Assembly (NCBI GenBank): GCA_029210695.1
Contig: JARGFH010000010.1
Location: 1,802-65,801, forward strand
Reading direction: 5' to 3'
From: Acidimicrobiia bacterium
GTDB taxonomy: Bacteria; Actinomycetota; Acidimicrobiia; Spongiisociales; JAHEDJ01
Length of the DNA: 64,000 nucleotides
Both the position numbers and the translations under genes were made by a program. The notes beneath the pieces were generated by a model that worked only from the letters and a program-made list of their open reading frames with translations, did not search any database and was not told the origin of the DNA. Of this stretch, positions 1,617 to 58,468 are shown piece by piece; position 1 is the first letter of the stretch, and each line of letters starts with the position of its first letter.

Positions 1617-1675
1617 GATCTTTCAGCGTATCCAATCGGTCGACCATCAGCGCAGATCCCCGGATCCTGTGGCCG

Positions 1676-2581: not shown

Positions 2582-2692
2582 GGTACCGGTTGTGTGTTCA
2601 TCGGCATGTCAACGGCAGCGCCTTCTCCCCCGTTCCCGAATGGCCGCTCTGTGTCCTACCGGGCATCATGTGAACGACCGAAAGGAGTGCGG

Positions 2693-4603
2693 ATGCGATC
2701 CGTCTTCAGGCCGACCGCGGCGATTGCCCTCTCGTTGGTGTTGACTGCTTGTACGGGTGCGGCATCAGGCACAACGTTCCCGGACAACTCGTCGACCAGC
2801 ACCGTTGCCCTGTTTCCCGCGCCCTCGACCACCGCGCCCATGACAGCGCCCACAACCACCGGTACGGGCCTGTTGGAGTTGGCTGCCCTCGACGGACTCG
2901 CCTTCGGAGACTTTCTCGAAGAGTCCTACCGGATCCTTCTCCTTCGGAGCCCGGAATTGCTCACCTCGCTCGGAGTTTCTGCCGATTACGGGTTGCGCAA
3001 CGATCAGCTCGATGACCTCTCTCCGTCGTATCTTCAACAGACGCAGGCCCTGGAGACCGGGATTCTGGAACGACTGCGTGTCTTCGATCGCTCCGCTCTC
3101 CTCGCCGGTGACCGGACGTCCTACGACGTTTACGAGTGGTACCTCGATCAGCAGGTGCGCGGGCATCGCTTCGCCTACCACGACTACCCGGTGCACCACT
3201 TCGTCAATAGCTACAACTTCAATCTGATCCTCTTTTTGAGCGAGGAACACCCGCTCAATACGGTCGCGGATGCGGAGGACTACATCACGCGCCTTTCCCA
3301 GATCGACGACCAGGTGTCGCAAGTACTCGAACGGCTGCAGATCAGTGAAGACATGGGGGTGCTTCCTCCAAGCATCATCGTCGCGTGGACCAGTGGAAGC
3401 CTGCAGGAGGATCTTGGAGGTACCCGGGATCCCTCAGCCGTCAGGGTGACGCGCCTGGACCTCTACACAGCGTTCGCCGAACGAATGGAAGGTGTTGATG
3501 GTATCGATGATTCGATGCGAGAGTCGCTTCTTGATCGGGCGGAAGCCGAGCTGGTGGCGTCGTTCGTCCCGGCATGGGTCGCACTCATCGACCACATGGA
3601 GGGAATCAGATCGCTGGCAGGTACGGAGGCCGGCGTGTGGCGGTTGCCAGACGGGGATGAGTACTACCAGTACCTGCTGCGTGATCACACCTCAACCGAC
3701 CTGACTCCCGAAGAGATTCATCAGGTCGGACTCGACGGCGTAGCGAGAGTGGAAGCTGAACTGCGGTTGGCCTTCGATCGACTCGGCTATCCAGAGGACG
3801 CCTCGATTGGGGACCTCCGGCACCGCGCCGCCGACGACGGAGGGTTCCTCGACGGTTCTTCGACTGCAGGTGCGGAGCAGGTCGTCGGCGCGTATACCGC
3901 GTTGATCGCGCGAGCGGAAGACGTCGCCGGAGAGTTCTTCAATCTGTGGCCGGAGGCCGAGGTGGGGATCGTTCCCGAAGCTGCCGGGCGGGGCGGGTAT
4001 TACGTGGCGGCATCCGTCGACGGCTCCCGGCCCGGTGCCTTTCATGCGGGTGTTGGTGGCCCGATCGCTTCCTATACGATGCCGACCGTCACCTTTCATG
4101 AAGCTGTTCCCGGTCATCACACGCAGATAGCCATCGCGCAGGAGCTCGACCTTCCTACCTTCCGTCGTTTCATTCAATACAACGGGTTTGCGGAGGGATG
4201 GGCGCTCTATGCGGAGAGGCTGGCGTCCGAGATGGGCTTGTACGAGAACGACCCGTACGGTGACATCGGCCGGCTCGAGTTGGAACTGCTTCGAGCGGTT
4301 CGTCTGGTGGTCGACACCGGTATCCATGCACTGAGGTGGAGTCGTGAGGAAGCGCACGCCTACATGGACGACAAGATCGACGGTTGGTCCCCTGAGGTCG
4401 AGCGCTACATGGTGCTGCCCGGTCAGGCGACCGCCTACATGATCGGGATGCAGACGATTCTCGATCTTCGGACGCAGTGGGAGGAGTCGGCTGAAGAGGG
4501 GATGCTCGATATCGCCGCGTTCCACGATCTCGTGCTCGGCGGTGGAAGCATTCCGCTTGGGGTACTGGAAGCCGTTGTCGAAGGAGCGAGCGCCTCAGGC
4601 TGA
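2693..4603 (+). CDS. DUF885 family lipoprotein (putative secreted metallopeptidase-like)
   Basis: Start at ATG 2693 with RBS AAAGGAG 2681-2687. Signal peptide with lipobox LVLTAC. HEAVPGHHTQ motif characteristic of DUF885. About 636 aa, typical for the family. Confidence 0.7.
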   Translation: MRSVFRPTAAIALSLVLTACTGAASGTTFPDNSSTSTVALFPAPSTTAPMTAPTTTGTGLLELAALDGLAFGDFLEESYRILLLRSPELLTSLGVSADYGLRNDQLDDLSPSYLQQTQALETGILERLRVFDRSALLAGDRTSYDVYEWYLDQQVRGHRFAYHDYPVHHFVNSYNFNLILFLSEEHPLNTVADAEDYITRLSQIDDQVSQVLERLQISEDMGVLPPSIIVAWTSGSLQEDLGGTRDPSAVRVTRLDLYTAFAERMEGVDGIDDSMRESLLDRAEAELVASFVPAWVALIDHMEGIRSLAGTEAGVWRLPDGDEYYQYLLRDHTSTDLTPEEIHQVGLDGVARVEAELRLAFDRLGYPEDASIGDLRHRAADDGGFLDGSSTAGAEQVVGAYTALIARAEDVAGEFFNLWPEAEVGIVPEAAGRGGYYVAASVDGSRPGAFHAGVGGPIASYTMPTVTFHEAVPGHHTQIAIAQELDLPTFRRFIQYNGFAEGWALYAERLASEMGLYENDPYGDIGRLELELLRAVRLVVDTGIHALRWSREEAHAYMDDKIDGWSPEVERYMVLPGQATAYMIGMQTILDLRTQWEESAEEGMLDIAAFHDLVLGGGSIPLGVLEAVVEGASASG

Positions 4604-4851
4604 ACGTCGGGGTCGTTTTGGCGCGGGAATCCCACCGTATTTGGGGTGATTCCCGCGCGAAAACGCTGAAGTCAGGGGAAATCCCCTACACCGGTCGTCC
4701 CATTCAGGGTTTTCGGAGGGTGAGACCCAATAGCGGCCCGCTGTCTGGAGCCGCACTATGTGGCTATGACAAACACTCTGGCCGTCGCCTTCCGATCACG
4801 GGCGGCCGCGGACACGGAACCGCACAAACTAGCGAGAAACACACAGGAGAC

Positions 4852-5553
4852 ATGCACATGCGTATAGGCAAACTCATTGCAGCGTTCGTCGGAATCATGA
4901 TGGTCGTCGGCAGCCTCGGTCTGGTGGCCGCCGGAACCTTCCTGGTCGTCGCTACCGATGATGCGGACGGATTCATATCCGCCGGCCCGGTGCGAGTGCG
5001 GACCGATTCGGCCGCCCTCGTTGGTGACGACCTCGACGTTTTCCTCGACGAACCGGTCCGGGGCGGCGTGTTCCTGGGAATCGACAACATCGAGACCCGC
5101 CTCGCCGTGAATCCCCGCAACGACAAAGGGTTGTTCGTCGGAATCGGACCATCGAGCGACGTCAACCGGTTCCTGGCGGGCGGGTCGTACTCGATCGTGG
5201 AGGCCTTCGGCGACAACGTGGTCCTCGATGACTTCGCCGGTTCGTCCCGTCTAGGAGCGCCCGCCGATCAGGATTTCTGGGTTGCCTCGACGCTCGACGA
5301 CGTCCTGAACTGGGACCTCGAATCCGGTCACTGGTCGGTCGTCGTGATGAACGAAGACGGCACGGCCGGCATCGATAGCTCGGTCACCGTGGCCGCCAGG
5401 GTCCCTTTCCTCCAGCCGATCGGCGCCGCCATCCTGGTTATCGGAGTCATCGGCCTGGCGGTTGGAATCGTCCTGACTTACTTCGGCGTGCGGAGTGATC
5501 CTCAGGCTCCTGTTGTCTCCCCACCTCCGCTCGAGCCGGCTCCGGTCGCATAA
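4852..5553 (+). CDS. hypothetical membrane-anchored protein (N- and C-terminal TM helices flanking an extracytoplasmic domain)
   Basis: ATG at 4852 preceded by AGGAGA RBS. Hydrophobic N-terminus (LIAAFVGIMMVVGSLGLVAAGTFLVVA) and C-terminus (AAILVIGVIGLAVGIVLTYF). No recognisable catalytic motif. Confidence 0.5.
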   Translation: MHMRIGKLIAAFVGIMMVVGSLGLVAAGTFLVVATDDADGFISAGPVRVRTDSAALVGDDLDVFLDEPVRGGVFLGIDNIETRLAVNPRNDKGLFVGIGPSSDVNRFLAGGSYSIVEAFGDNVVLDDFAGSSRLGAPADQDFWVASTLDDVLNWDLESGHWSVVVMNEDGTAGIDSSVTVAARVPFLQPIGAAILVIGVIGLAVGIVLTYFGVRSDPQAPVVSPPPLEPAPVA

Positions 5554-5609
5554 CAAACCGATAACGCGCAGGCGAGTGTCCCCGCCCGATGGCGGGGACA
5601 CCCTTCTGT

Positions 5610-6617
5610 CTAGGCGAACGATTTCTCGTACGTGGTCCCGAAACTGACGACCTCGAAACCAAGGCTCTGATAGAGCCGGTAGGCGCCGTGCGGGTTCTCC
5701 ACGTGGACACCGAGGGCCGCCTCCTCCATCCCCCGCTCTGCCAGTTGTCGCAAGCTGGCGCAGATGAGAGCCGTCGCCACGCCCCTTCCGCGCCACTCCC
5801 TGGCTGTCGAGATGAACTCCGTCCATCCCCGCCTGCGGTTGTTCTCTCGGTTGTCGACCTCGTTGATGAACGATCGGACCTGGCCGGCGACTCGATCGCC
5901 GTCCCATGCGACCTTCCACAGCGATTCGTCCCGATAGGGAAAGTCGAGGAACGTCTGCCAATCCTTTTCCGTCGGTTCGGAGAAGCCCCAGTGATCTCGG
6001 AACGCCTCGACGTCGGCCTCCCAAATCGTCCGCAGCTGCTCGGCCGTCACCGGGCGGATGGTCAGATCAGCCGGAAGGATGGCCTCGGGGATCCCGTCGA
6101 GGTTCGGGCGGACGAGGGTCGCTCCGTGCTGGATTGCTCGATAGCCGGCCTCCTCGAGTAGGGCCGCCCCACCGCTTGCTTGCTCGTCGACGTCGGTCCG
6201 GTACGCTTTCAACTTATCGGTGCGATGGGTGGCGGCCCGCTCTGACAGGCGGTCTTGCGCCCAACGGAGCATGGCCGTCCCGATGCCGCGGTTGCGCCAT
6301 TCCGGTACCACCTTGCACATGTGGCGGTAGACGCGGGGCCCGTCGACCTCATCCCACCAGCGGGTCGTTACGTAGCCGACCGGGATTCCCTCGATCTCTA
6401 CGAATCGGAAGTCATGTTCGAGGTCCATATGGTCGGTGTTGCGGAAGGCGACTTCGACGTCCTCGGCCGTCATCACGGCGTCGGCCTGACCGTCGGCGCG
6501 TGCTTCGGCGACGACGAGTTCGGCGACTACCTGGAAGTCGCCCTCCCGCCCGAACGGGCGGTCGCTAACACCGGCGATGTCGGGAAGCTGCATGTCCATT
6601 TGCGCAACGCTACACAA
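5610..6617 (-). CDS. GNAT family N-acetyltransferase with two tandem GNAT domains (MshD/mycothiol-synthase-like architecture)
   Basis: 335 aa. Two acetyl-CoA-binding motifs (RNRGIGTAMLRWA and RGRGVATALICA) lie in separate halves. The start may be at a downstream Met (6599/6593). Confidence 0.65.
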   Translation of the reverse strand: MCSVAQMDMQLPDIAGVSDRPFGREGDFQVVAELVVAEARADGQADAVMTAEDVEVAFRNTDHMDLEHDFRFVEIEGIPVGYVTTRWWDEVDGPRVYRHMCKVVPEWRNRGIGTAMLRWAQDRLSERAATHRTDKLKAYRTDVDEQASGGAALLEEAGYRAIQHGATLVRPNLDGIPEAILPADLTIRPVTAEQLRTIWEADVEAFRDHWGFSEPTEKDWQTFLDFPYRDESLWKVAWDGDRVAGQVRSFINEVDNRENNRRRGWTEFISTAREWRGRGVATALICASLRQLAERGMEEAALGVHVENPHGAYRLYQSLGFEVVSFGTTYEKSFA

Positions 6618-6661
6618 TCGCCAAACCCCAACCGGGTCCTTTTCTTGGCAGGCAGGGTGCT

Positions 6662-7119
6662 CTAGGCCTCGGGACTGCGGGCAGTCACCAGCGCAGACAT
6701 GCGCACCCAGATCAGATGGTCGGATTGCCGAAGGCGCAGCCAGTCTTGGGCATTATTGATCACATCCGATAAGCGTTCCCCGGAACCATCATCCACGAGG
6801 AGTACACCATCGATACGATGTCCGCCGGTGAGTCGAAGCGTGGCGGGTGTTTCGTGCCAGTAGCCCTCGAGATCGAGTGCGGATGGTGTCACCGACACCC
6901 CGCTCACCGCGGGTTTGTGGATGAGGACGAACTCGCCGTCACCATCCACAGCCGGCAACACATTGCCGGGCTCGTCGATGAGGTCCTTTACCGTCTGGGA
7001 GCCGCCGTGGGTCTGGGCGAAGTCGGCCAGAAACAGGAGTGCCTCTATGACCCGCCCGTCGGACATGAACACCTCGGCCGGGCAGGAGTGCTTCTCGATG
7101 AGAAACCGCTCGCTCATCG
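6662..7119 (-). CDS. hypothetical protein, apparently translationally coupled to the upstream pilT
   Basis: ATG at 7117-7119 directly follows the pilT stop (7114-7116). 152 aa: MSERFLIEKHS...; no recognisable motif. The track ORF extends to 7327, but that N-terminus overlaps pilT and is rejected. Confidence 0.45.
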
Positions 7120-8223
7120 GTGGCCCGCTCGGGCGAGGTACGGAGCGATCAACTCCGGGTTGAGCATCTTGTCCGACGCGTCGAGCGGATCGATCTTGCC
7201 CGCCTCGAGGAGTTGAATGATGGAGGCATCCATCGTGCGCATCCCTTCCCTCTTGCCGGTCTGGAGGGCTGACGGGATTTGGAACGTCTTGCCCTCGCGG
7301 ATGAGGTTGGAGATGGCCGGAGTGCACATCATGAGCTCGAGTGCCGCCACTCGACCCGGCTGGTCGACGCGTTTGAACAAGGTTTGAGCGATTACGGCCC
7401 GAAGCGCGTCGGCGAGAGTGGAGCGAATCTGTGCCTGTTCCCTGGAGGGGAAGACCTCGATGATGCGATCGACCGTCTTTGCCGAGTTGAGGGTGTGGAG
7501 CGTCCCGAAAACGAGGTGTCCGGTGGCGGCGGCTTCGAGTGCCAGCCGAATCGTCTCGAGGTCGCGCATTTCTCCAACCAGGATGATGTCCGGATCCTCA
7601 CGTAACACCGCCCGCAGCGCAGCTGTGAAGCTCTGCGTGTGGTTGCCGACCTCGCGATGACTGACGAGCGCTTTCACGCCCTGGTGGACGAATTCGATCG
7701 GATCTTCGATCGTGATCAGGTTGTCTGATCGATTCCGGTTGACCTCATCGATGATGGCGGCCAGCGTGGTCGACTTACCGGAGCCGGTCGGGCCGGTGAC
7801 GAGCACCAGGCCCTGCCGGAGGTAGGCCAGCTTGCTGACCTCCTCTGGAAGACCTAGGTCGGCGCAGCTCAGGATCTTGGAAGGAATGAGCCGGAAGACA
7901 CCGGCTGCCCCGTCCTTCTGCACGAATAGGTTGGCCCGGAAGCGGGCGATATCTGCCAGTTCGTATCCGAAATCAACGTCGCCCGATTCGGTGTAGGTGG
8001 TCCACATCGAAGGGGGAGTGATCTCCTGGAGCAGCGGCCGGAGGTTGGCGTCGGTGAGGGCAGGACTGTTGAGACGGATCAGTTCGCCGTCGATACGCAT
8101 GATGGGAGGGTTGCCGGCCACCAGATGCAGATCAGACGCACCATGCTCTTTCATGGCACGAAACAGATTGTCGAGTTGCGGCAAGCCGGGCCCCCCAGGA
8201 GGTTCGTTGTGAAGAGATGGCAT
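7114..8223 (-). CDS. pilT: type IV pilus twitching-motility ATPase PilT
   Basis: Walker A GPTGSGKSTT, the ASDLHL N-terminal domain and the PilT signature GKTFQIPS...REGMRTMDAS. Start chosen at MPSLHNEPPGG (alternatives upstream to 8328). Confidence 0.8.
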   Translation of the reverse strand: MPSLHNEPPGGPGLPQLDNLFRAMKEHGASDLHLVAGNPPIMRIDGELIRLNSPALTDANLRPLLQEITPPSMWTTYTESGDVDFGYELADIARFRANLFVQKDGAAGVFRLIPSKILSCADLGLPEEVSKLAYLRQGLVLVTGPTGSGKSTTLAAIIDEVNRNRSDNLITIEDPIEFVHQGVKALVSHREVGNHTQSFTAALRAVLREDPDIILVGEMRDLETIRLALEAAATGHLVFGTLHTLNSAKTVDRIIEVFPSREQAQIRSTLADALRAVIAQTLFKRVDQPGRVAALELMMCTPAISNLIREGKTFQIPSALQTGKREGMRTMDASIIQLLEAGKIDPLDASDKMLNPELIAPYLARAGHR

Positions 8224-8317
8224 CGGCCGGGGGGTCGTGCTTCTTGAGGGCTTTGCGCGGGGAAAGCGATGTGTACCGCCGCACGATCGACCAAACTGAA
8301 GGTGAGAAAGGAAACCC

Positions 8318-9586
8318 ATGACGGGCATGCGGACGTCGGCAGGTCGGGCCGGCCGCGCCGTTGGCGATGCTGCCAGGCAGGCGATCCGGGCGGGTGGTCG
8401 CGGCGTTGACCGGTGGGTGTCTGTGCATGGCCCGGCGTTTCGGCGGCTCGCCGTGACTCAGGCGGCTGCCTATGCCGGCGACACGCTGGTGGCGATCGGA
8501 TTGGCCGGGACGATCTTCTTCGATATCCCGTCGGCGGAAGCACGCGGCAAGGTGGCCCTCTACTTGCTCCTGACGCTGGCGCCGTTCGTCGTCCTCAGTC
8601 CATTTCTTCCTCGCATCTTCGCTCGCCTTCCCAACCCCTACCGGGTCGGGCTGGTCGGCAGTGGCGGTCTCAGAGCAGTTCTCACGGTGATCCTGGTACT
8701 CGTTGGACTCGATGGCATCTGGCTGTTCCCGATTGCGTTTGGTTTGCTCGTTCTTTCACGCCTGCATGGGATCGCCCGGAGTTCGCTGCTCCCAATTACC
8801 TTGCCGGAGGCCGTGGCACTCGTAGCCGCCAATTCCCGTCTGGCGCAAGTGGGGCTGGCCGCCGGGACGGTGGCCGCACTGGTTGGAGCCCTGGTGATGG
8901 AGGTGTTCGGGCCGGAGGCATCACTCTTGCTGGCTGCCGTAGCTTTCGCAGTGATGGCGTTCCTGGCCGGCGCCATCGATGCACCCAGGGCGGCGCAGGG
9001 ATTTGCCAGGGAATGGAACCATGTGTGGTCGCCGCCCCGGGTCGTGCGACTCTCGATGACGGCAACCGCCATGGTCAGGTTGTTGCACGGATTTCTCGTT
9101 CTCCTCCTTGCCTTTGCGTTCAAGGAGGCCGACGCCGGACTCCTCGATTTCGGTGCCCTGCTGGCCGCGGCGGGCGGAGGGTTCGGGCTTTCATCGCTGC
9201 TGGCTCCGTGGCTCGAGCGCCGTCTGCGAGAGGAGCCCATGGTTGTGGCTGCGCTGGCCGTTGAGGCAGCGGCTGCGTTCATCGCCGCGCAGGTCTTCGG
9301 CCTGGCAGCTGGAGCCGCGGTAGCGGCGGCGGCCGGACTGGCGTGGGGAACCGCCAAATTCGCATTCGATGGGATGCTGCAGAACCACACGCCGGCCCAC
9401 CGGCGCGGCCTGGCCTTCACCCGGTCTGAGACGTTCTTTCAGATTGCCTGGGTGCTGGGGGCGATCGTTCCCGTCGCCATCCCTATCGGTGTGCCACTCG
9501 GCCTGGCGCTGGCCGGCACCTCAGCCCTGGCCGTCCAGGCAGTCATCGTTTCGGGTTTGCTCGTCTCGGTCCGAGAGAGCAACTGA
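8318..9586 (+). CDS. polytopic membrane protein, MFS-transporter-like
   Basis: 422 aa with about 10-12 hydrophobic helices; Ala/Gly/Leu-rich spans separated by short loops. No specific family motif could be confirmed. Confidence 0.5.
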   Translation: MTGMRTSAGRAGRAVGDAARQAIRAGGRGVDRWVSVHGPAFRRLAVTQAAAYAGDTLVAIGLAGTIFFDIPSAEARGKVALYLLLTLAPFVVLSPFLPRIFARLPNPYRVGLVGSGGLRAVLTVILVLVGLDGIWLFPIAFGLLVLSRLHGIARSSLLPITLPEAVALVAANSRLAQVGLAAGTVAALVGALVMEVFGPEASLLLAAVAFAVMAFLAGAIDAPRAAQGFAREWNHVWSPPRVVRLSMTATAMVRLLHGFLVLLLAFAFKEADAGLLDFGALLAAAGGGFGLSSLLAPWLERRLREEPMVVAALAVEAAAAFIAAQVFGLAAGAAVAAAAGLAWGTAKFAFDGMLQNHTPAHRRGLAFTRSETFFQIAWVLGAIVPVAIPIGVPLGLALAGTSALAVQAVIVSGLLVSVRESN

Positions 9587-9587
9587 C

Positions 9588-9699
9588 TTTTCTCCGCAAT
9601 GCTATGGACCGTGGCAATGCACTGCATTGCGGAGAAAACGGATTGGAGTTTCTCAGCAATACTATGGACCGTGGCAATGCACTGTATTGCGGAGAAAAA
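9588..9699. repeat. tandem pair of ~50-nt palindromic REP-like elements (TTTTCTCCGCAATGC-N20-GCATTGCGGAGAAAA)
   Basis: Copy 1 at 9588-9638 and copy 2 at 9648-9699. Each has 15-nt perfectly complementary arms. They sit between convergent genes (the 8318..9586 gene and the rhomboid protease). The same element recurs at 23613 and 58357/58417. Confidence 0.65.
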
Positions 9700-9708
9700 T
9701 CTGGTAAA

Positions 9709-10278
9709 TCAGTCAGGCTTGCTCAGCAGGTAGGCCGCCAGCACGCCGCCGGCCATGCCGAAGAGGTGGCCCTCCCACGAGATCCCACGCTGGAACGGCA
9801 GGAGTCCCCAAATGATGGCTCCGCCGTACACAAATAACACGCCAACGCCGATGGCGATCCACCGCAGGTCTTTTTCGAAGAAGCCGACCACCAGCAGATA
9901 CCCGAGGTACCCGAAGACGAGAATGCTGGCGCCGATATGGAGGGTCGGTCGGGCCAGCAGCCACACGAGCAGCCCTCCCACCACCATGATCGTCAAGGTG
10001 ATGGCCAGCCACTTGCGGATTCCGCGCAACATCACCAGTCCGCCCACCACGATGAACGGGACCGTGTTGGAAATGAGGTGGCCGAAGGATCCGTGCAGGA
10101 ACGGCGCCCACAGGATCCCGTCGAATCCCGAGAGGGTCCTCGGGCGAATCCCCTGCGACTGGAGGGCATCACCGAGGAACACACTGTCCACGATCTCGAT
10201 GCTCCACAGCAGGATGACCACCGCGATGAGCAGCTGCAGCTCGCGGATTGGCTCTGTGGGCTTATCCGTGGATTCCAT
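9709..10278 (-). CDS. rhomboid family intramembrane serine protease
   Basis: 189 aa. FLHGSFGHLISN (TM2 His/Asn), GASILVFG (GxSx active-site helix) and WEGHLFGMAGGVLAAY (catalytic His, GxxxG). Confidence 0.75.
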   Translation of the reverse strand: MESTDKPTEPIRELQLLIAVVILLWSIEIVDSVFLGDALQSQGIRPRTLSGFDGILWAPFLHGSFGHLISNTVPFIVVGGLVMLRGIRKWLAITLTIMVVGGLLVWLLARPTLHIGASILVFGYLGYLLVVGFFEKDLRWIAIGVGVLFVYGGAIIWGLLPFQRGISWEGHLFGMAGGVLAAYLLSKPD

Positions 10279-10353
10279 CCGTGCTCAACCTAGATAGTTC
10301 GTTGACGTGTGCATGGATAAGAGAGGCTGGTCGATTCCCGTCGAATGGCACGG

Positions 10354-11883
10354 TCAGCCATCCAGTGCTCTAGCGGCGAGGGCGGCCGCCGTCCGGCCGG
10401 AGCCCATAGCCGTGCTCATTCCACCGCCGCCTATCCACGCACCCGCCAGGAACAGATTGGGGATCGGTGTCCTCGGTGACCGCCGGTTGGTGAACATGTT
10501 CTCAACGGTCTGCTCGCGCCCGTAGATCGACCCGAATGGCTGGCGCCCGTACCGGACGTTGGTCAACGGGGTGGCGATCTCCTTGATAATGATCCGGTCG
10601 GCGAGGCCCGGGATGAGCGCGCTTGCTCTCTTGATCAGCACCTCGCCGGCCGCTTCTTTCACCGCCAGGTACCCCGGATGCTTCGAGTACCCGTCGAGGT
10701 TGCCTCCGGTTCCCCACACATCTGCGTGGTCCCACGGCGCCAGTGTCATCAGCACGAGGGAGCTATGTCCGTCAGGCGCACAGCCGGGGTCGGACTCTGT
10801 GTAATTGGTGATCACCATCCCCGCCCGTTCGAAATCGCCGTTGACCACGAACTGGTATCCGGCCTCGAGATCGTATCCGTCGTCCACGAAGAACTCGTGG
10901 TGAGGCCAGCCTTCCGCCGCCAGGTCCCCCTTCACTCCTAGATAGACGACCAGATTGGAGAGCGCCGGCTGATCGGACGACAGCGCAGCAACGAAGGCGT
11001 CATCGAAATTCTCCTCGCCGGCGAATCCGATGGTGTCGAGCGGGCCTGCCGTGCTGATGAATACGTCCCCTTCATATCGATTTCCCCGGTGGGTCTCAAC
11101 TGTGGTGATCCGCCCGTCCACCACATCGAGGCCGGTGACCGTGTTCCGGTAGACGACCCGGCCGCCGTTTTCGACGATTACCGCCTCCAGAGCCCTGCTC
11201 AAGGCCATACTTCCGCCGACCGGGTAGTAGCCGCCGTTGATGTGGTAGCTCGACAGGGCGGCCGCAAACAGCCCTGCGCTCATCCGGCTGGGCGGAAGCC
11301 CGAAATAGCCCCAGAGCGCAGAGAGGGTCGCTTTCAGCTGGTCGTCGGTCACGTGCGCCCCCAAGAAGTCTGCCCAGCTCTGAGTGAAGGCGATGCTCAT
11401 CGCCGGGTAGCGTTTGAGCATCTGACCGGGGTCGGGGCGATCGCCCTCCGCCCGGTCGCGCGCATAGGAAGAAATGTCTCGGCCGACCTGGACGACGCTG
11501 TCGAGGAAGGATCGGATCCCTCCCGCTTCCCCCGGGAATAGCTCGACGAGCTCGGAGCGATAGTCGTTGATGTCGGCGTGGGCGGTGACCTCGAAATCGG
11601 GCAGCCGCAGCGTGTAGAGAGGGTCGAGACGCTGCATGGTGAGGCGGTCGGTTATCCCGAGCTCCTGAAGCATTCCGTACAACCAGCCCCCCGGCCCGGC
11701 TCCATCCAGCGCGTGCAACGCGACCTCGAAGCGGAAACCGCTTCGTTTGAACTCGTGGGCAAATCCGCCGGGGACCGCATGGTGCTCGATGACCAGCACC
11801 TTCTGCCCCTGTGTGGCGAGGTGGGCGGCGGCACTGAGTCCGGCCAGGCCGGCTCCGATGACGATGACATCCCGATGTTCCAT
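10354..11883 (-). CDS. phytoene-desaturase (CrtI)-family NAD(P)/FAD-dependent oxidoreductase
   Basis: 509 aa. N-terminal Rossmann motif VIVIGAGLAGLSAAAHLA...VLVIE. Length and C-terminal region are typical of CrtI/amine-oxidase-like flavoenzymes. Confidence 0.65.
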   Translation of the reverse strand: MEHRDVIVIGAGLAGLSAAAHLATQGQKVLVIEHHAVPGGFAHEFKRSGFRFEVALHALDGAGPGGWLYGMLQELGITDRLTMQRLDPLYTLRLPDFEVTAHADINDYRSELVELFPGEAGGIRSFLDSVVQVGRDISSYARDRAEGDRPDPGQMLKRYPAMSIAFTQSWADFLGAHVTDDQLKATLSALWGYFGLPPSRMSAGLFAAALSSYHINGGYYPVGGSMALSRALEAVIVENGGRVVYRNTVTGLDVVDGRITTVETHRGNRYEGDVFISTAGPLDTIGFAGEENFDDAFVAALSSDQPALSNLVVYLGVKGDLAAEGWPHHEFFVDDGYDLEAGYQFVVNGDFERAGMVITNYTESDPGCAPDGHSSLVLMTLAPWDHADVWGTGGNLDGYSKHPGYLAVKEAAGEVLIKRASALIPGLADRIIIKEIATPLTNVRYGRQPFGSIYGREQTVENMFTNRRSPRTPIPNLFLAGAWIGGGGMSTAMGSGRTAAALAARALDG

Positions 11884-11966
11884 TCAGTGGCCCCTTTGTT
11901 TCTTGCCCGGAGGCTACCGGCCGGCGTCCGGCTCCCGCGCCCGCGCCCGCGGCCGGCGCAGGCGGA

Positions 11967-13355
11967 TCAAATCTGGCCCGAGTCCGTCATCCGGTCGACC
12001 AGCGTCAGGTAGTCCGGATCGGCATACCGGTCGGGCGAGAACCACCGCCAGTAGTCCGGGAGCGCGCCTCCAACCACGTGCAGTGCGCCGAGTTCTCCCG
12101 CTGCCGCGGCCGCCATGATCCCGAATCCGGAGAGGGCGGCGACCACAAACGATCCGGCCACGCCGGCCGGGCCGATCAGGGGCCGATTCTCTGCCGTTTT
12201 CGTGTAGTAGCCGCCGTCGACGTACGGCTGCGGAAGCCGTTCGAGGTACTCGCCGAACCCCGGCACCATCGTGGTGAGACCGCGCAACACGATCTCGGGG
12301 TAGAGCGGATCATCCGCGATCGGGAACTCAGGCGGACGGACGTCCGTGTGGCACTCCCACAATCCGAGCACGGTGGCCGCCTCATCCGGCCCGTCCGGCC
12401 GGCAATGCGCACCCGCTCCAAGTATCCCGACCAGGTAGCGGAGTTCGGGGTCCCCAGCCAGTTCTGCCAGTTCGGCGTTGCTCCAGGCCAGCGCCTGGGG
12501 ATCGTTCCAGATCAGCATTGGAGCGTGACGTGGGAGGGCAGAGCGGACATCGCGAAACGAGACTTTGCGATGCACCTCCGAGAACAGCGGGAGATCGGCG
12601 CCGGCGAGCTTTCCAACGTCGGCCGCCAGCGGTCCGGCCGCGTTGAGAAACCGATCGGTCTCGATCATCTCGCCTGATTCCAGCCGCACGCCTCTCACTC
12701 GTTCGTCTGAGATGTCGAGAGCCACCACCCGATCTGTGACGAGTTCGACGCCGGCCGTTCTGGCCCGCTCGAGCAGCCACGCTCCCAGTTGCTGGGCAGA
12801 CAACCAGCCGGCCCGACGAACGTGCAAGCCGCCGACCGCCGCCGTTGACAGATACGGGAAGTGGGAGCGCAGCACGCCACCGTCCAGGAATAGGTCGGCA
12901 CCGCCGGGCACTTCCTCGAATGCCGCCGGAGGTGAGGCGGCATAGGCCGGATCGTCGGGCCGACCTCGAAGCACCCGCAGGTCGCCGCCTCCGAGTGCTG
13001 AGATCGCCCCGGCCTGTTGTTCCATGGCCGCCAGATTCACCGGGTCGCCCGTGACGTAGAGATAGCCGCGCCGTGACAGGTTGAACGCGTTGTCGCTGGA
13101 GGTGGCCCACTCCTCGAGGAGGTCGATCGAACGATTCATCAACGCCACCATGCCGTCGCCGGGACCCGGCCACCAGTTCCTGTAGCACTCCGTCGACTTG
13201 TCGCTGGTGAGTGTCATCGGCGGGAGCAGGTCGCAGATGACCACCCGTTCCACTTCGAGTTGCACGGAGAGGTGAAACGCCGTGGATATGCCGGCGATAC
13301 CCGCGCCTGCGATCACGACGTCTGCACGCCCGGGTGCCTTCGGCTGCATCTGCAT
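11967..13355 (-). CDS. FAD-dependent oxidoreductase (DAO family)
   Basis: 462 aa. The dinucleotide-binding motif VVIAGAGIAGISTAFHL is at the N-terminus. Confidence 0.65.
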   Translation of the reverse strand: MQMQPKAPGRADVVIAGAGIAGISTAFHLSVQLEVERVVICDLLPPMTLTSDKSTECYRNWWPGPGDGMVALMNRSIDLLEEWATSSDNAFNLSRRGYLYVTGDPVNLAAMEQQAGAISALGGGDLRVLRGRPDDPAYAASPPAAFEEVPGGADLFLDGGVLRSHFPYLSTAAVGGLHVRRAGWLSAQQLGAWLLERARTAGVELVTDRVVALDISDERVRGVRLESGEMIETDRFLNAAGPLAADVGKLAGADLPLFSEVHRKVSFRDVRSALPRHAPMLIWNDPQALAWSNAELAELAGDPELRYLVGILGAGAHCRPDGPDEAATVLGLWECHTDVRPPEFPIADDPLYPEIVLRGLTTMVPGFGEYLERLPQPYVDGGYYTKTAENRPLIGPAGVAGSFVVAALSGFGIMAAAAAGELGALHVVGGALPDYWRWFSPDRYADPDYLTLVDRMTDSGQI

Positions 13356-13491
13356 GATCCCACCCTATCCGCCTGCCAACGCAGCCTTCCTTGAGCATCC
13401 GTTTCGTGCCGGAAGGCCCTACACCGTTCGGTGAGCAACGTGGTGGAATCCAGCTGAAGTGGGCTGGATCCATCGGCCCGAGGAGGAACAC

Positions 13492-14487
13492 ATGTCAACC
13501 GAAGCGAAGACCGCTGCACCAAAGAGCTGGCCACGCATGGCAGCGGGGGCGCTCGTCGTCGTAGCGGGTCTCGTCCTGATCTCATCGACGTTCATCAACA
13601 ACCTCTTTGAAGTGGGCCCGGCGTTCGAAGAAATGATCGACGACTTCCGTCCGATGCTGACGGATGAGGCGTTGGACACGGCCAAGGCCGATATCGGAGG
13701 CCTGGCTGCGGTAGCAGACGAATTCCAAAACGCGGTGATCCCGGGCATGTCGCAGCAGTTGGTCATGGATGCTGCGCAGTTCGGTGGATTCCTGGGTGAG
13801 AGCTTCCCTGCAGTTGCCCAGGGAGCGGCGGCGCTGCCCGAGATCGCAACAACTTTCAACAGCCTGATCGGCACCCTCGAGGCCGAGCAGGGGCGGTTCG
13901 CTTCGGCGGACGCCATCCCGACCGAGTCCCTTCCAGCCACGACCGTTCCGTGGGGCATGTTGGGAGCCGGCGTAGTGGCGGTGCTCATCGGCCTCTTCAT
14001 GTTCGTTCGGCCGCGACTTGGATCCATGCTGGCACTGGTGCTGGGAGTAGCGCTGGTAGCGGTCCCCGCCTTCCTGTCGCTCCCACAGAAGGCAGCAGAC
14101 GCCGATCAACTCAATGAGAACCTCGAGCCTGTGTACACGGCCGAGCTGGTGGCCGGGGCACAGGGGGCACTCGGCGTGGTGGGCGCCATGGGTATGGAAC
14201 TCCAGACCGCCATGTTGCCTGCTCTGGCCCAGCAGTTGGAAATGCAGCCCGACCAGTTGTCGGCGTTCATTGGTGAGAACTTCCCGGCCATGGCCGGTGT
14301 CATGGCCAACATGGATACCACCATGGGGCGGTTCCAAGGCATGGTGACGGCGTTCGACGTCAACCTCGACAACTACGACACACTCAAGCCGGTCAAATTC
14401 GTTCCGATCATCTGGACGATGATCCTGGTCGGAATCGGAATAGTGCTGTTCGGAGCGTGGGGCTTCCTGGCCTCGAGCGAGGGCTGA
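13492..14487 (+). CDS. hypothetical membrane protein with internal tandem duplication (TM - helical domain - TM, twice)
   Basis: ATG 13492 with AGGAGG RBS at 13481-13486. Four hydrophobic helices. The two halves are recognisably similar (FGGFLGESFPAVAQG vs FIGENFPAMAGV; MLGAGVVAVLIGLFMF vs MILVGIGIVLFGAWGF). Confidence 0.5.
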   Translation: MSTEAKTAAPKSWPRMAAGALVVVAGLVLISSTFINNLFEVGPAFEEMIDDFRPMLTDEALDTAKADIGGLAAVADEFQNAVIPGMSQQLVMDAAQFGGFLGESFPAVAQGAAALPEIATTFNSLIGTLEAEQGRFASADAIPTESLPATTVPWGMLGAGVVAVLIGLFMFVRPRLGSMLALVLGVALVAVPAFLSLPQKAADADQLNENLEPVYTAELVAGAQGALGVVGAMGMELQTAMLPALAQQLEMQPDQLSAFIGENFPAMAGVMANMDTTMGRFQGMVTAFDVNLDNYDTLKPVKFVPIIWTMILVGIGIVLFGAWGFLASSEG

Positions 14488-14538
14488 ACGAACCGGAACA
14501 GATGGACGATGGGGCGTTTCGGCGCCCCATCGTCGCGC

Positions 14539-14982
14539 TCAGCCCTCGGTGGCTTCCAGGTTGCGAACGAATACGCTCAGCTCATCGTCGAAATTGTCGG
14601 CGGATGGGTCGAGGATGATCGAAACCGGGTAGCCAAGTTGCCCGTCGTAGGCGACGTCGATGACGTCTCCATCCGCGTTTGCTTCGATCAGCGCAAACAG
14701 CCCTTCGATCGTCGGGTCCAGGAATTCGACGATGGCGACCGAGCCGGCGGGTGAGCTCGTTCGGATCACGCCGGCCACTTCGCCGGAATGGACTGTGATC
14801 TGAAACGGGCCTCTCACTTCTTCGGGGCAGTAACAATCGACTGTGAGCTGGTACCGGTAGGACTCCGGACCTCGTTCGGACCACGTTTGCTGTCGATCGG
14901 CCAACCGCTCGATGGTTCCGCCGCTACAGGCGGCCAGAGTCAGGGCGATCCCGATGAGCAGAGTCCTTTGCACAACAGTCAC
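14539..14982 (-). CDS. hypothetical lipoprotein
   Basis: Signal peptide with lipobox (LLIGIALTLAACSGG). Start uncertain (GTG about 14982 or upstream ATG 15036). Confidence 0.45.
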   Translation of the reverse strand: MTVVQRTLLIGIALTLAACSGGTIERLADRQQTWSERGPESYRYQLTVDCYCPEEVRGPFQITVHSGEVAGVIRTSSPAGSVAIVEFLDPTIEGLFALIEANADGDVIDVAYDGQLGYPVSIILDPSADNFDDELSVFVRNLEATEG

Positions 14983-15004
14983 ATGATCGCGCTGGCTCCA
15001 GGCT

Positions 15005-15844
15005 TCACCAACCTTCGAGTTCGGCGACCCACTCAACGGCCACTTTCGCCAACTGGCGTTGGAGCCGACGCAACTCGGTTCCGTCGGCCGCCCAATCCGG
15101 TGGGGGCCGCGAGGCGTGGATACCCATCAACCCGGCCAACACGGATGCCCAGGCGGCAGGTTGAGGGAGAACATGCGGGGTTGGGGCGTGGCAGGCTCTC
15201 ATGTCGAGCAATGCAGTGGCGACGTCGAGGTAGCGGTTCCCGCGAGACACATACTCCCAATCAACGATCACCGGTCCGCGCTTCGTGAAGCAGAGGTTGC
15301 CGGCACCAAGGTCTGCGTGGATGAGATCGTCCCCCGACAGGTCTATCTTTGACGACAACTCGATCAGCCGGGTGCCATGTCGGGCGATCCACTCCAAATC
15401 CACGATGCCGAGACCCGTGATCTTTGCTGGATCCGCCGTGATTTCCGACCAAGGCGATACTTCGAGGGGCGGCATCGCTTCGAGATCGAAGGGCACTCTG
15501 GTGTCGGCGATCCGGGTCAGTGTGGGGAAGAGAATGCTCGACTCGGCCGGCCACGGCGGCGGCCACTGAGCCTTCGATAGATCTTCGAGGATGAGAATCG
15601 GTTCGGGACCGTCCTCCCATGCCCATACGACCGGGAGCCAGTCGGCCTCGAGCGCGGCGTACAGGCTGTGCTCCGTCCGCAGGGACCGGGCGGTTCGCTC
15701 ATCGGCAGCCGCCTTGACGAAAACCCTGGTGCCCGCTTCGGTGGTCACCATACCCCGCCACGACCGAGTGTGGCCCCCGGTCGGCTGCTGCACGTCGATG
15801 ACCGGGCTGTCGAGCAGACGTTCGAGGCGCTCGGGTGGATTCAT
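15005..15844 (-). CDS. phosphotransferase (APH/kinase-like) family protein
   Basis: DLIHADLGAGNL (catalytic loop HxDxxxxN) and VIVDWEYVSRGNRYLDVA (DxE/D motif). Start taken at MNPPERLERL (ATG 15842-15844); the longer track ORF to 16339 is rejected as an N-terminal over-extension. Confidence 0.6.
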   Translation of the reverse strand: MNPPERLERLLDSPVIDVQQPTGGHTRSWRGMVTTEAGTRVFVKAAADERTARSLRTEHSLYAALEADWLPVVWAWEDGPEPILILEDLSKAQWPPPWPAESSILFPTLTRIADTRVPFDLEAMPPLEVSPWSEITADPAKITGLGIVDLEWIARHGTRLIELSSKIDLSGDDLIHADLGAGNLCFTKRGPVIVDWEYVSRGNRYLDVATALLDMRACHAPTPHVLPQPAAWASVLAGLMGIHASRPPPDWAADGTELRRLQRQLAKVAVEWVAELEGW

Positions 15845-15899
15845 GTACCTGCAACGAAAGCCGATCGTCCGCCGGTGGTCAACATGTAGGGTTTGGATC

Positions 15900-16859: not shown

Positions 16860-16962
16860 CTCGCCGCGCACGTTGCAGGTTCGTGCGATTCGTTGTCGCC
16901 GTTCCAGGTTCTGAGTTGTAGGTCCTGAATTGCGGGTCGAGCGCGTGGTGTGCCGGCCGGGC

Positions 16963-17392: not shown

Positions 17393-17492
17393 ATGGGCGA
17401 AGTCTATTGAGTCATGGAGATTCGGCGATCGAGCACAACCGACTACTGCCTGTTGCCTACTGCCACCGGCCATCCTCCACCAGAATGGGCTC

Positions 17493-19016: not shown

Positions 19017-19079
19017 GAGTGGCACATCCGGATGGACTTGAGTTCTGCCAGGCTGGGTCGGACGCCGATCGGAGCGATA

Positions 19080-23612: not shown

Positions 23613-23663
23613 TTTTCTCCGCAATGTAATGGCGCGTGGTGATGCACTGCATTGCTGAGAAAA
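23613..23663. repeat. single copy of the palindromic REP-like element
   Basis: TTTTCTCCGCAATGTAATGGCGCGTGGTGATGCACTGCATTGCTGAGAAAA. Lies between the LLM gene stop (23600) and deoD (23717). Confidence 0.6.
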
Positions 23664-58356: not shown

Positions 58357-58468
58357 TTTCTACGCAATGCAGTGGCGCGAAAGCCGTACACAGCATTGCC
58401 GAGAAACTCCCTGATGTTTTCTGCGCAATGCAATGGCGCGAAAACCGTACACAGCATTGCCGAGAAAA
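58357..58468. repeat. tandem pair of the palindromic REP-like element (diverged variant)
   Basis: Copy at 58357-58406 (TTTCTACGCAATGCAGTGGCGCGAAAGCCGTACACAGCATTGCCGAGAAA) and copy at 58417-58468. Between convergent genes (58349 stop / serB stop 58471). Confidence 0.6.

What the first reader, a model, noticed from the sequence alone, without database searches (positions are those of the whole stretch)
9588..9699. Dispersed ~50-nt palindromic (REP-like) element family at convergent gene junctions, twice as tandem pairs
The unit TTTTCTCCGCAATGC-(~20 nt)-GCATTGCGGAGAAAA has 15-nt arms that are exact reverse complements (predicted 15-bp stem, ~20-nt loop). Copies occur at 9588-9638 and 9648-9699 (tandem), at 23613-23663, and at 58357-58406 and 58417-58468 (tandem, diverged arms ACGCAATGC...GCATTGCCGAG). 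A degenerate half-copy (ATGCTGCGCAGCATTGCGG) is at 24662-24680. All sit immediately after stop codons of convergent or co-directional genes, consistent with REP-like elements acting as bidirectional terminators or mRNA-stabilising hairpins. Loop sequences co-vary between loci (TATGGACCGTGGCAATGCAC vs AGTGGCGCGAAAGCCGTACACA), suggesting subfamilies.
Basis: seen in the sequence. Interest (0 to 1): 0.55.

Follow-up and report, generated by a model that had tools for sequence, protein, structure and literature searches.

The report
Dispersed palindromic repeats, candidate nuclease partner
A 49-base palindromic DNA repeat really does sit at gene ends throughout a group of uncultured Acidimicrobiia, stays at the same spots across species, and seems tied to a DNA-binding nuclease gene bracketed by the same repeats rather than to the usual REP transposase.

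Summary
The window has exactly five copies of a 49-50-nt palindromic unit: a doublet, a singlet and a doublet. None is expected by chance. The claimed half-copy at 24662-24680 is not a member.

The family is genome-wide in three uncultured Acidimicrobiia MAGs, with at least 170 units at 113 sites, and in at least 100 metagenome contigs. Units lie a median of 7 nt after a stop codon. They occur only as singlets or as same-orientation doublets with a 10-11-nt spacer whose length, not sequence, is conserved.

Sites are conserved between species that are only about 72% identical in DNA. The sequences follow a species-specific consensus, so they evolve in concert. Stem positions do not covary, there is no U-tract, no sense-strand G·U bias, no target-site duplication and no RAYT. 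This points to arm-by-arm recognition of DNA rather than a selected RNA hairpin or terminator.

The new lead is a single-copy AbiEi-like wHTH plus DUF559 (Vsr-like) nuclease gene. It is bracketed by these units in all four genomes where it was seen. Homologues in five of six other gene neighbourhoods carry related lineage-specific palindromes, usually 44 nt before the start codon. I read this as a REPtron-like system with a different enzyme. That link is inferred, not demonstrated.

The parts
9589..9637 (+). Unit 1 of doublet 1, 49 nt, starting 2 nt after the stop of the MFS-like gene 8318-9586. Arms are TTTCTCCGCAATGC / GCATTGCGGAGAAA; the flanking T9588 and A9638 extend the palindrome.
   Evidence: 64.5 bits; -25.2 kcal/mol
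9638..9648 (.). Spacer of doublet 1 (ACGGATTGGAG). Its length is conserved family-wide at 10-11 nt but its sequence is not. The orthologous spacer in Ww198 is unrelated.
9649..9697 (+). Unit 2 of doublet 1, 49 nt, ending 11 nt before the stop of the convergent rhomboid gene 9709-10278 (minus strand).
   Evidence: (61.3 bits)
23614..23662 (+). Singlet, 49 nt. It lies 13 nt after the stop of the luciferase-like monooxygenase gene and 54 nt before the GTG start of the purine nucleoside phosphorylase gene (co-directional spacer).
   Evidence: (66.1 bits)
58357..58406 (+). Unit 1 of doublet 2, 50-nt loop subtype (GCGAAAGCCGTACAC), 7 nt after the stop of the scramblase-like gene.
   Evidence: (45.7 bits)
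58407..58417 (.). Spacer of doublet 2 (CTCCCTGATGT), 11 nt.
58418..58467 (+). Unit 2 of doublet 2, 50 nt, ending 3 nt before the stop of the convergent SerB-like gene 58471-59754 (minus strand).
   Evidence: (44.8 bits)

Best explanation
The five units belong to a lineage-specific family of 49-50-nt palindromic DNA repeats that fills the short spacers just downstream of stop codons in a clade of uncultured Acidimicrobiia. Shown: the family is dispersed genome-wide. It occurs as singlets or same-orientation doublets with a fixed 10-11-nt spacer. It stays at orthologous sites across species while its sequence tracks a species-specific consensus. It evolves about three times more slowly than third codon positions. 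Each arm is conserved as a sequence, without pair covariation. Inferred: the units are recognised as double-stranded DNA, one arm at a time, by a trans-acting protein. The best candidate is a single-copy protein made of an AbiEi-type winged-helix DNA-binding module fused to a DUF559 (Vsr-like, PD-(D/E)XK) nuclease. Its own gene is bracketed by the repeats, with the upstream copy ending 44 nt before the start codon. On this reading one unit is a pair of inverted AbiEi-type binding sites. A doublet is then the four-site operator layout known for the AbiEi homologue Rv2827c, copied around the genome. Nuclease-triggered repair or gene conversion between copies would spread and homogenise them. This resembles a REPtron (RAYT plus REPs) but uses a different enzyme. 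The repeats survive only at gene 3' ends because insertions elsewhere are harmful. The RNA hairpin they create is a by-product that may sometimes be useful.
For: Dispersal: 111 genome blocks, 94 of them from three MAGs; 170 units at 113 sites; at least 100 metagenome contigs carrying about 135 more units. Position: 84 of 100 classed sites have a stop codon within 20 nt, median 7 nt. Divergent spacers are depleted, 7 sites where about 19 are expected, chi-square p=2e-5. Doublets: 57, never more than two units, period 59/60/61 nt in 9/41/7 cases, same orientation in 45 of 48. Spacer sequence is unconserved even between orthologous doublets. With an 11-nt spacer the GCAAT/ATTGC cores are N25 apart both within a unit and across the spacer. 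Constraint: window against Ww199 differs at 14 of 247 element positions (5.7%), against 18.6% at third codon positions. Sites: all 3 window sites and at least 17 of 34 Ww199 sites are occupied at the orthologous spot in Ww198. Yet orthologous copies are about 72% identical, no more alike than random inter-genome pairs (71%), while intragenomic pairs are 78-86% identical. The 49-nt and 50-nt loop types swap at orthologous sites. Arm-wise conservation without covariation; no sense-strand G·U bias; only weak orientation bias relative to the gene, 42 against 24. Partner gene: it is flanked on both sides by units in L001, L061, L204 and L232. In L232 the whole 113-nt doublet, spacer included, is a 96% direct repeat on either side. 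Homologues at 38-45% identity in other neighbourhoods are bracketed by related palindromes: L233/L236; L234/L237 and L238, with a decayed version in L235; and L241. In L239 a 48-nt palindrome is itself dispersed and forms a doublet, and a half copy lies 44 nt upstream of the gene. No other non-coding repeat pair brackets a gene in those loci, except the L239 family's own copies on either side of a Lon gene. Protein: AbiEi E=3e-31; AbiEi_4 and DUF559 pass the Pfam cut-offs; the nuclease residues D238, E249, D251, H256 and D265 are invariant in 21 homologues down to 31% identity. A profile search hits the DUF559 structure 3HRL and the Vsr-like homing endonuclease 3R3P. AbiEi proteins bind inverted repeats upstream of their own genes, and Rv2827c binds four arranged as two pairs (PMC7319586).
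Against: Nothing shows binding or cleavage; the link is by position only. The partner gene is not in the window. Because sites are positionally conserved, the four type-1 cases count as one event. In four other lineages no copies were seen beyond the two at the gene in 11-21 kb, so possession of the gene does not by itself give a dispersed family. One homologue (L240) has no palindrome. Only about 1.5 Mb of sequence was held, not whole genomes, so a RAYT or another enzyme elsewhere is not excluded. The blocks were retrieved with an exact-arm pattern, which inflates arm conservation and limits what the covariation test can see. Gene calls come from my own crude caller.
Confidence: 0.45

Rival explanations
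1. The selected function is at the RNA level. The transcribed unit forms a 17-bp hairpin at the 3' end of the upstream message, like REP in E. coli operons or the TRIT motif of mycobacteria. There it ends transcription, blocks 3' exonucleases or is bound by a dsRNA-binding factor.
For: The hairpins are stable. Units lie a median of 7 nt after stop codons and are enriched between convergent genes. Sequence is constrained. TRIT shows that a conserved palindromic motif can mark gene ends in another actinobacterial lineage, and its authors proposed a factor that binds it (PMC3152330).
Against: No U-tract follows the stem on either strand. Mycobacterial RNA polymerase needs a U-tract at intrinsic terminators (PMC3993855, title and abstract). 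Predicted TRITs overlapped mapped 3' ends only minimally (bioRxiv 2022.06.01.494293). There is no covariation, no sense-strand G·U excess and only weak orientation bias. Many units sit inside tightly packed co-directional gene pairs. An RNA role does not explain why arm sequence and doublet spacing are conserved, or why a nuclease gene is bracketed.
Confidence: 0.2
2. The link with the nuclease gene is real but runs the other way. The AbiEi-DUF559 gene is a selfish, homing-type gene that targets and lands in pre-existing palindromes, duplicating them. The palindromes spread or persist by some other means, such as replication slippage, general recombination or an unseen enzyme.
For: The doublets on either side of the gene are direct copies of each other, spacer included, as expected after Campbell-type or homing insertion. 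The nuclease domain resembles a Vsr-like homing endonuclease (3R3P). The gene sits in different neighbourhoods in different lineages.
Against: The palindrome ends exactly 44 nt before the start codon in types 1, 3 and 5. This suggests it is part of the gene's own conserved upstream region and inherited with it. In four lineages the palindrome was seen only at the gene.
Confidence: 0.15
3. This is a classical REP family mobilised by a single-copy RAYT (an IS200-like HUH tyrosine transposase) that lies in a part of the genomes not held here.
For: Copy number, extragenic position, vertical persistence with a species-specific consensus, absence of target-site duplications and a hint of regional strand bias (adjacent sites share orientation 27 times against 12) all fit REP/RAYT biology (PMC3337134, PMC3733652).
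Against: There was no RAYT-like hit by tblastn with remembered E. coli RayT and IS200 TnpA sequences, and no HUH...Y..NP motif in about 1.5 Mb of repeat-bearing DNA, where RAYTs are normally found because REPs flank them. There is no GTAG or CGTC tag. Units are longer than the 20-40 nt typical of REPs. Doublets are direct, not inverted.
Confidence: 0.1
4. This is a MITE: a deletion derivative of a DDE-transposase insertion sequence, whose terminal inverted repeats make up the two arms.
For: The element is short, has terminal inverted repeats and is dispersed in many copies.
Against: No target-site duplication of 2-8 nt appears at any of four boundary offsets in 107 sites. There is no multi-copy transposase in the held loci. 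Length is fixed at 49-50 nt, and sites are conserved across species.
Confidence: 0.03

Closest known systems
REP elements with their RAYT gene (REPtrons) in Proteobacteria
   Same: Both are short palindromic extragenic repeats in hundreds of copies, inherited vertically with a species-specific consensus. Both lack target-site duplications. In both, a single-copy enzyme gene is flanked by the repeats, and such units also exist in genomes without a dispersed family (PMC3733652; PMC3337134).
   Different: The candidate enzyme is an AbiEi wHTH plus Vsr-like PD-(D/E)XK nuclease, not an HUH tyrosine transposase. Units are 49-50 nt rather than 20-40 nt and carry no GTAG or CGTC tag. The evidence points to double-stranded, arm-wise recognition rather than a single-stranded hairpin. 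The host phylum is Actinomycetota.
REPINs and BIMEs
   Same: Repeats occur as fixed-geometry pairs, and the pair rather than the single unit looks like the constrained form.
   Different: REPINs and BIMEs pair units in inverted or alternating orientation, with conserved linkers in BIMEs. Here the two units are direct and the 10-11-nt spacer has no conserved sequence. Arrays never exceed two units.
TRIT motif of Mycobacterium (Gardner et al. 2011, PMC3152330)
   Same: It is a conserved palindromic motif with about 147 copies in another actinobacterial lineage, distributed very narrowly around stop codons and restricted to one lineage. Its authors suspected a dedicated binding factor.
   Different: TRIT lies mostly inside the coding end, around -8; these units start after the stop, median +7. 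TRIT was proposed as a terminator. The sequences and host classes differ. No partner protein is known for TRIT.
AbiEi / Rv2827c operators (type IV toxin-antitoxin antitoxins)
   Same: The partner protein's N-terminal 170 residues match AbiEi at E=3e-31. AbiEi proteins bind inverted repeats just upstream of their own gene, and Rv2827c binds four 23-bp repeats arranged as two pairs within 131 bp (PMC7319586). A doublet here is likewise four arms in 109 bp, ending 44 nt before the start codon.
   Different: There is no AbiEii toxin gene next to it. The module is fused to a nuclease. A second copy follows the stop codon, and in this lineage the 'operator' occurs more than 100 times across the genome.
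Vsr-like (EDxHD) homing endonucleases such as I-Bth0305I, and DUF559 proteins
   Same: A profile of the nuclease domain hits 3HRL (DUF559, E=6e-8) and 3R3P ('mobile intron protein', E=0.002). The acidic and histidine residues are invariant.
   Different: This gene is free-standing and not inside an intron or intein. Its target is unknown.

Membership tests
REP (repetitive extragenic palindrome), classical sense | High-copy, extragenic, imperfectly palindromic short repeat | tested here: met
   170 units at 113 sites in three MAGs. Of 100 classed sites, 93 lie in convergent or co-directional spacers and 7 in divergent ones; a further 6 were called inside genes, probably through miscalled genes. 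About 135 more units occur in metagenome contigs.
REP (repetitive extragenic palindrome), classical sense | Length 20-40 nt with an unpaired GTAG or CGTC tag at one end (PMC3733652) | tested here: not met
   Units are 49-50 nt. The ends are TTTCTC / GAGAAA and are fully paired. No GTAG or CGTC appears in the consensus.
REP (repetitive extragenic palindrome), classical sense | Cognate RAYT (HUH/Y1 transposase) gene flanked by the repeats | tested here: inconclusive
   No hit by tblastn with remembered RayT and IS200 sequences, and no HUH...Y..NP motif in about 1.5 Mb of repeat-bearing DNA. Whole genomes could not be scanned.
REPIN | Two REPs in inverted orientation forming one long hairpin | tested here: not met
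   45 of 48 scorable doublets have both units in the same orientation.
BIME | Mosaic of REPs in alternating orientation with conserved linker motifs, in arrays of variable length | tested here: not met
   Orientation is direct, spacers have no conserved sequence, and there are never more than two units.
MITE | Target-site duplication flanking the terminal inverted repeats | tested here: not met
   No excess of 2-8-nt direct repeats at four boundary offsets in 107 sites, compared with shuffled partners.
MITE | Parent insertion sequence with the same ends | tested here: inconclusive
   No multi-copy transposase was found in the held loci. Whole genomes were not available.
Intrinsic (Rho-independent) terminator | G+C-rich hairpin followed at once by a U-tract | tested here: not met
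   On both strands the stem ends in GAGAAA(A). The T-run is at the 5' foot and is paired. The units are not among the terminator-like hits of the consensus scan of 1-20000.
Structured RNA family (Rfam) | Match to a curated covariance model; compensatory changes in stems | tested here: not met
   No hits at gathering score across the whole window. There are only chance miRNA-hairpin hits at E of about 0.1-10. Covariation equals that of shuffles.
TRIT (Mycobacterium) | Membership of the TRIT covariance model; restricted to Mycobacterium; centred about 8 nt inside the coding end | not testable with these tools
   The TRIT model or consensus is not available here. Position differs (median +7 after the stop) and so does the host (Acidimicrobiia). 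Treated as an analogue only.
AbiEi-type operator | Pairs of inverted repeats immediately upstream of an AbiEi-family gene | tested here: met
   A unit or doublet ends 44 nt before the start codon in L001, L061, L204 and L232 (type 1), L234 (type 3) and L239 (type 5); the distance is 42 nt in L238 and 57 nt in L233. The protein matches AbiEi at E=3e-31.
AbiEi-type operator | Bound by the cognate AbiEi protein | not testable with these tools
   This needs a gel-shift or footprinting experiment.
CRISPR array / integron attC | Many repeats with 25-50-nt unique spacers; or cassette-associated attC sites with an integrase | tested here: not met
   There are at most two repeats with 10-11-nt spacers. 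Flanking genes are syntenic housekeeping genes.

The most novel reading that the evidence does not exclude
These repeats are the dispersed copies of the four-arm operator of an AbiEi-wHTH/Vsr-like nuclease. They would define a REPtron-like repeat-plus-enzyme system that uses a PD-(D/E)XK nuclease in place of the HUH transposase of RAYTs. Related cassettes (palindrome, 44 nt, gene, palindrome) occur across Acidimicrobiia, and the palindrome has expanded genome-wide in at least two lineages. The protein would recognise double-stranded arms and drive gene conversion, which would explain fixed sites with a species-specific sequence.
Probability: 0.4. Interest if true: 0.75.

Novelty: new variant of a known kind. 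Interest (0 to 1): 0.55.

Why it matters
Short dispersed palindromes are among the most abundant non-coding features of bacterial genomes. Only one enzyme class, the RAYTs, has so far been tied to them, and large repeat groups such as CGTC REPs and TRIT have no known partner. A second, unrelated enzyme class linked to such repeats would show that this lifestyle arose more than once. It would give the large, uncharacterised DUF559/AbiEi-fusion family of Actinomycetota a testable role. It would also offer a mechanism, protein-guided nicking and conversion, for the long-standing puzzle of repeats that stay in place while their sequence changes in step within a species. The family is also a practical marker for this uncultured clade and breaks its assemblies, since runs of N sit next to several copies.

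Tried and rejected
- **Rfam.** The gathering-score scan of the whole window gave nothing, and the E-value scan of 9540-9750 gave only chance miRNA hairpins.
- **RAYT/IS200.** tblastn used sequences I recalled from memory, which is a weak query, plus a regex for HUH...Y..NP. Both found nothing.
- **Multi-copy ORFs in the held loci.** Only low-identity paralogues such as transporters turned up.
- **Target-site duplications.** None were found.
- **Empty against filled sites.** I looked for these to define insertion boundaries. The only candidates were a divergent spacer that does not align (L057:1431 against window 22746-22775) and decayed remnants in L017/L037, so there is no clean empty site.
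- **Strand bias.** Neighbouring sites share orientation 27 times against 12. The link to GC skew is not significant (odds ratio 2.05, p=0.10) and there is none to local gene strand.
- **G·U against A·C on the sense strand.** No bias.
- **Source look-up.** Exact-protein look-ups for two window proteins found neither on record.
- **Literature.** Searches for the MAG names, and for Acidimicrobiia together with REP, found nothing relevant. A search on DUF559 with palindrome and repeat found no description of this link.
- **NCBIfam.** No model matches the nuclease protein.
- **PDB sequence search.** The single-sequence search found nothing; only the profile search did.
- **First search pattern.** Its fixed 22-nt gap found only the two 50-nt units.

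Full report
**1. Observation**

The sequence at 9588-9699 is two 49-nt units separated by 11 nt. A third unit lies at 23614-23662 and a pair of 50-nt units at 58357-58467. A pattern that fits all five (TTTCTNNGCAATN{20,30}ATTGCNGAGAAA) finds only these loci, against none in 100 shuffles. A covariance model built later from 73 family members scores them 45-66 bits with all filters off. The next hit in the window scores 13 bits. The 'half copy' at 24662-24680 is not found even at E<=10 and is not a member. As RNA the units fold at -17 to -27 kcal/mol. Rfam has no match.

**2. Source and spread**

One scan of 185,579 species genomes returned 111 blocks. Of these, 94 come from three uncultured MAGs: Ww198, Ww199 and the Acidimicrobiia MAG CSMAG_694. 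The other 17 are low-G+C chance matches.

The window is about 91% identical to Ww199 contig JAHEDK010000011 and 70-75% identical to Ww198. It therefore comes from a sister species of Ww199.

Allowing two mismatches per arm, the held blocks contain 170 units, 143 of them exactly 49 nt long. These are lower bounds, because blocks were fetched with an exact pattern. About 100 of those are high-G+C family members, with about 135 further units.

**3. Anatomy**

Once oriented, the whole unit is conserved, not only the arms. In Ww198 it reads TTTCTC-R-GCAAT-R-CTGT TGCGCGTGGGGAACG ACAG-Y-ATTGC-Y-GAGAAA. An asymmetric GCGCGTGG core is shared by all three MAGs. A 50-nt subtype has a CGAAAAC-like loop. 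Flank positions -1 and -2 are weakly conserved (G/A, then T/G); nothing beyond them is.

The 113 sites are 57 doublets and 56 singlets, never more than two units. Several apparent singlets abut runs of N. Doublet periods are 59, 60 and 61 nt in 9, 41 and 7 cases, and 20 more doublets in the metagenome contigs behave the same way. Both units have the same orientation in 45 of 48 doublets.

The spacer has no conserved sequence, even between orthologous doublets. With an 11-nt spacer the GCAAT and ATTGC cores are 25 nt apart both within a unit and across the spacer. A doublet is therefore four evenly spaced arms.

**4. Position**

I used my own codon-usage gene caller, which is crude but reliable for stop codons. 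It gives 39 sites between convergent genes, 54 between co-directional genes and 7 between divergent genes. The background in the same blocks is 112, 320 and 114 (chi-square p=2e-5).

Of 100 classed sites, 84 have a stop codon within 20 nt, with a median of 7 nt. In co-directional spacers the next start codon is a median of 41 nt away. The genes flanking the window sites are unrelated housekeeping genes.

**5. Evolution**

All three window sites are occupied at the orthologous spot in both Ww199 and Ww198, and site 1 is a doublet in all three. At least 17 of the 34 Ww199 sites are occupied in Ww198, and 34 orthologous pairs were found in all. Loop orientation is the same in 11 pairs and flipped in 4.

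Orthologous copies are nevertheless no more alike (about 0.72 for Ww198 against Ww199) than random pairs between the two genomes (0.71). Copies within one genome are 0.78-0.86 alike, and the two units of a doublet 0.875. The 49-nt and 50-nt types replace each other at orthologous sites. So the sites are fixed and the sequences are homogenised, which is concerted evolution.

Between the window and Ww199 the elements differ at 14 of 247 positions (5.7%), against 18.6% at third codon positions. Decayed remnants exist where one species has lost the unit.

**6. DNA or RNA?**

- The variable stem positions (7/43 and 13/37) vary as R and Y independently on the two arms.
- On 73 sequences, 88.6% of cells are paired against 88.2% in shuffles, and the covariation score is 0.090 against 0.089.
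- In co-directional spacers, where only one strand is a message, G·U and A·C mismatches on the sense strand number 67 and 64.
- Orientation relative to the gene is only weakly biased, 42 against 24.
- No U-tract follows the stem on either strand.

Together with the conserved arm sequence and spacing, this fits independent protein-binding half-sites on duplex DNA better than a selected RNA hairpin. One caveat applies: the exact-arm retrieval pattern limits the variation that could be seen.

**7. What moves or maintains them?**

There are no target-site duplications, no multi-copy transposase and no RAYT-like sequence or motif in about 1.5 Mb of repeat-bearing DNA. The RAYT test is weak, because the queries were recalled from memory and whole genomes were not available.

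I then looked at genes with units on both sides. Most are ordinary enzymes. One is a 303-aa protein with an AbiEi_4 domain and a DUF559/MTES_1575 nuclease domain. It is single-copy in the held data and is bracketed by units in Ww199, Ww198 and two metagenome contigs. The upstream unit always ends 44 nt before the start codon, and the downstream unit starts 2-4 nt after the stop. In L232 the two bracketing doublets are 96% identical over 113 nt, spacer included.

**8. Is the link more than one accident?**

A search of 5.8 billion proteins gave orthologues at 62-76% identity and then more distant homologues at 47% identity and below, mostly from Acidimicrobiia MAGs. I looked up eight of them. 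One (P0004, L232) is a type-1 orthologue; the other seven fall into six further gene neighbourhoods.

| Neighbourhood (loci) | Identity | What brackets the gene |
|---|---|---|
| L233/L236 | 45% | A 48-nt palindrome (GTTCTTGCGTAACTATGGGAAGCC / GGCTTCC...ACGCAAGAAC) at both ends |
| L234/L237, L238, L235 | 40-43% | GTTCTTGCGTAACTGGCGGC-8-GCCGCCAGTTACGCAAGAAC at both ends, ending 44 and 42 nt before the start in L234 and L238; decayed in L235 |
| L241 | 38% | A 43-nt palindrome (GTGGTGTGGATTGACGGTCAC-T-...) at both ends |
| L239 | 40% | A 48-nt palindrome (GTTCTGGCGGATCTGAGGCCC...GGGCCTGGTGTCCGCCAAAAC) that is itself dispersed: three full copies in 11 kb, including a doublet. A half copy ends 44 nt before the gene; its other half is replaced by the end of an IS-like ORF |
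| L240 | 38% | Nothing |

Self-comparison of these loci shows no other non-coding repeat pair bracketing a gene, apart from the L239 family's own copies on either side of a Lon gene. The termini of types 1, 2, 3 and 5 are alike: (G)TTYT..GCG ... CGC..ARAA(C). The cassette 'palindrome, 44 nt, gene, palindrome' therefore appears homologous across lineages, and the palindrome has expanded genome-wide in at least two of them.

**9. The protein**

The N-terminal 170 residues match AbiEi at E=3e-31. The C-terminal domain keeps D238, E249, D251, H256 and D265 invariant in 21 homologues. A profile hits the DUF559 structure 3HRL (E=6e-8) and the 'mobile intron protein' 3R3P (E=0.002), with weaker hits to Vsr and AbiEi.

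AbiEi antitoxins bind inverted repeats just upstream of their own genes. S. agalactiae AbiEi binds two 23-bp repeats. M. tuberculosis Rv2827c binds four, arranged as two pairs within 131 bp of the start codon (PMC7319586). A doublet has the same layout: four arms in 109 bp, ending 44 nt before the start.

**10. Interpretation**

The terminator or stabiliser function is not supported as the selected role.

My best reading is a REPtron-like system in which an AbiEi-type DNA binder fused to a Vsr-like nuclease recognises the arms and homogenises or spreads the copies. This step is inferred from position and homology only.

Four rivals remain open:
- an RNA-level role like that proposed for TRIT (PMC3152330), although predicted TRITs barely overlap mapped 3' ends;
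- the nuclease gene being a passenger that homes into palindromes;
- an unseen RAYT;
- a MITE.

**11. Limits**

- Only 8-kb blocks around exact pattern matches were available, not whole genomes.
- Gene calls are my own.
- The four type-1 cases are one evolutionary event.
- The sampling environment is not given by the tools.
- The partner gene is not in the window.

Noticed in passing
L239 7443-7490, 10126-10173, 10196-10243, and about 125-144: Another Acidimicrobiia MAG (GCA_029979655.1) has its own dispersed 48-nt palindrome, GTTCTGGCGGATCTGAGGCCC..GGGCCTGGTGTCCGCCAAAAC. It sits after the stops of a TadE-like gene and a Lon gene, once as a doublet with a 70-nt period. A 3' half copy lies 44 nt upstream of the AbiEi-DUF559 homologue; its 5' half is replaced by the end of an IS-like ORF.
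   Followed up: partly
Ww198/Ww199 contigs (loci mapped); window 1-64000: Neighbouring sites on a contig tend to share loop orientation (27 same, 12 different), and all five window units are '+' in a window with positive GC skew. The link with the GC skew of each block is not significant (odds ratio 2.05, p=0.10). This could be a replication-strand bias.
   Followed up: partly
L057 about 430-530, L097 about 6730-6830, L002, L026, L038, L087: Runs of N lie directly next to units in the MAG assemblies, and L057 and L002 show a duplicated unit 221 nt apart across the gap. These look like scaffolding artefacts at the repeats, so some 'singlets' are probably doublets.
   Followed up: no
L017 about 2960-3010 and L037 about 2820-2880: There are decayed remnants of units at orthologous spots where the other species still has an intact unit (for example TTTCTACGCAGCGCTATGTG...CGAAAAC). 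This shows that units can erode in place.
   Followed up: partly
window 33996-34528 vs 53381-53913; 31840-33555 vs 51276-52945: Two paralogous gene blocks lie 19,385 nt apart on the minus strand, with 73-75% DNA identity over 290 and 107 nt and about 43% protein identity between members. This looks like a duplicated operon, probably a transporter.
   Followed up: no
window 39866-42361 and 45378-47849: Two paralogous ORFs of 831 and 823 aa lie 5,494 nt apart on the plus strand, sharing 76-78% identical DNA stretches. Their function was not checked.
   Followed up: no
window 5576-5601: A unique G+C-rich 11-bp hairpin (GTGTCCCCGCC CGAT GGCGGGGACAC) sits between the convergent genes ending at 5553 and 5610. 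This is an ordinary gene-end hairpin in a spacer that lacks the repeat.
   Followed up: no
L081 2433-2481, L089 5399-5509, L104 7896-7944, L021 6388-6496: In some units the loop has itself become self-complementary, for example GGCGCG-TCA-CGCGCC and GCGCG-AAAA-CGCGC. This gives an almost perfect long hairpin, as expected from template-switch 'correction' of quasi-palindromes.
   Followed up: no
L173 1406-1535 and L165 4236-4377: Two metagenome contigs carry unit pairs with periods of 81 and 93 nt, outside the otherwise strict 59-61-nt range.
   Followed up: no
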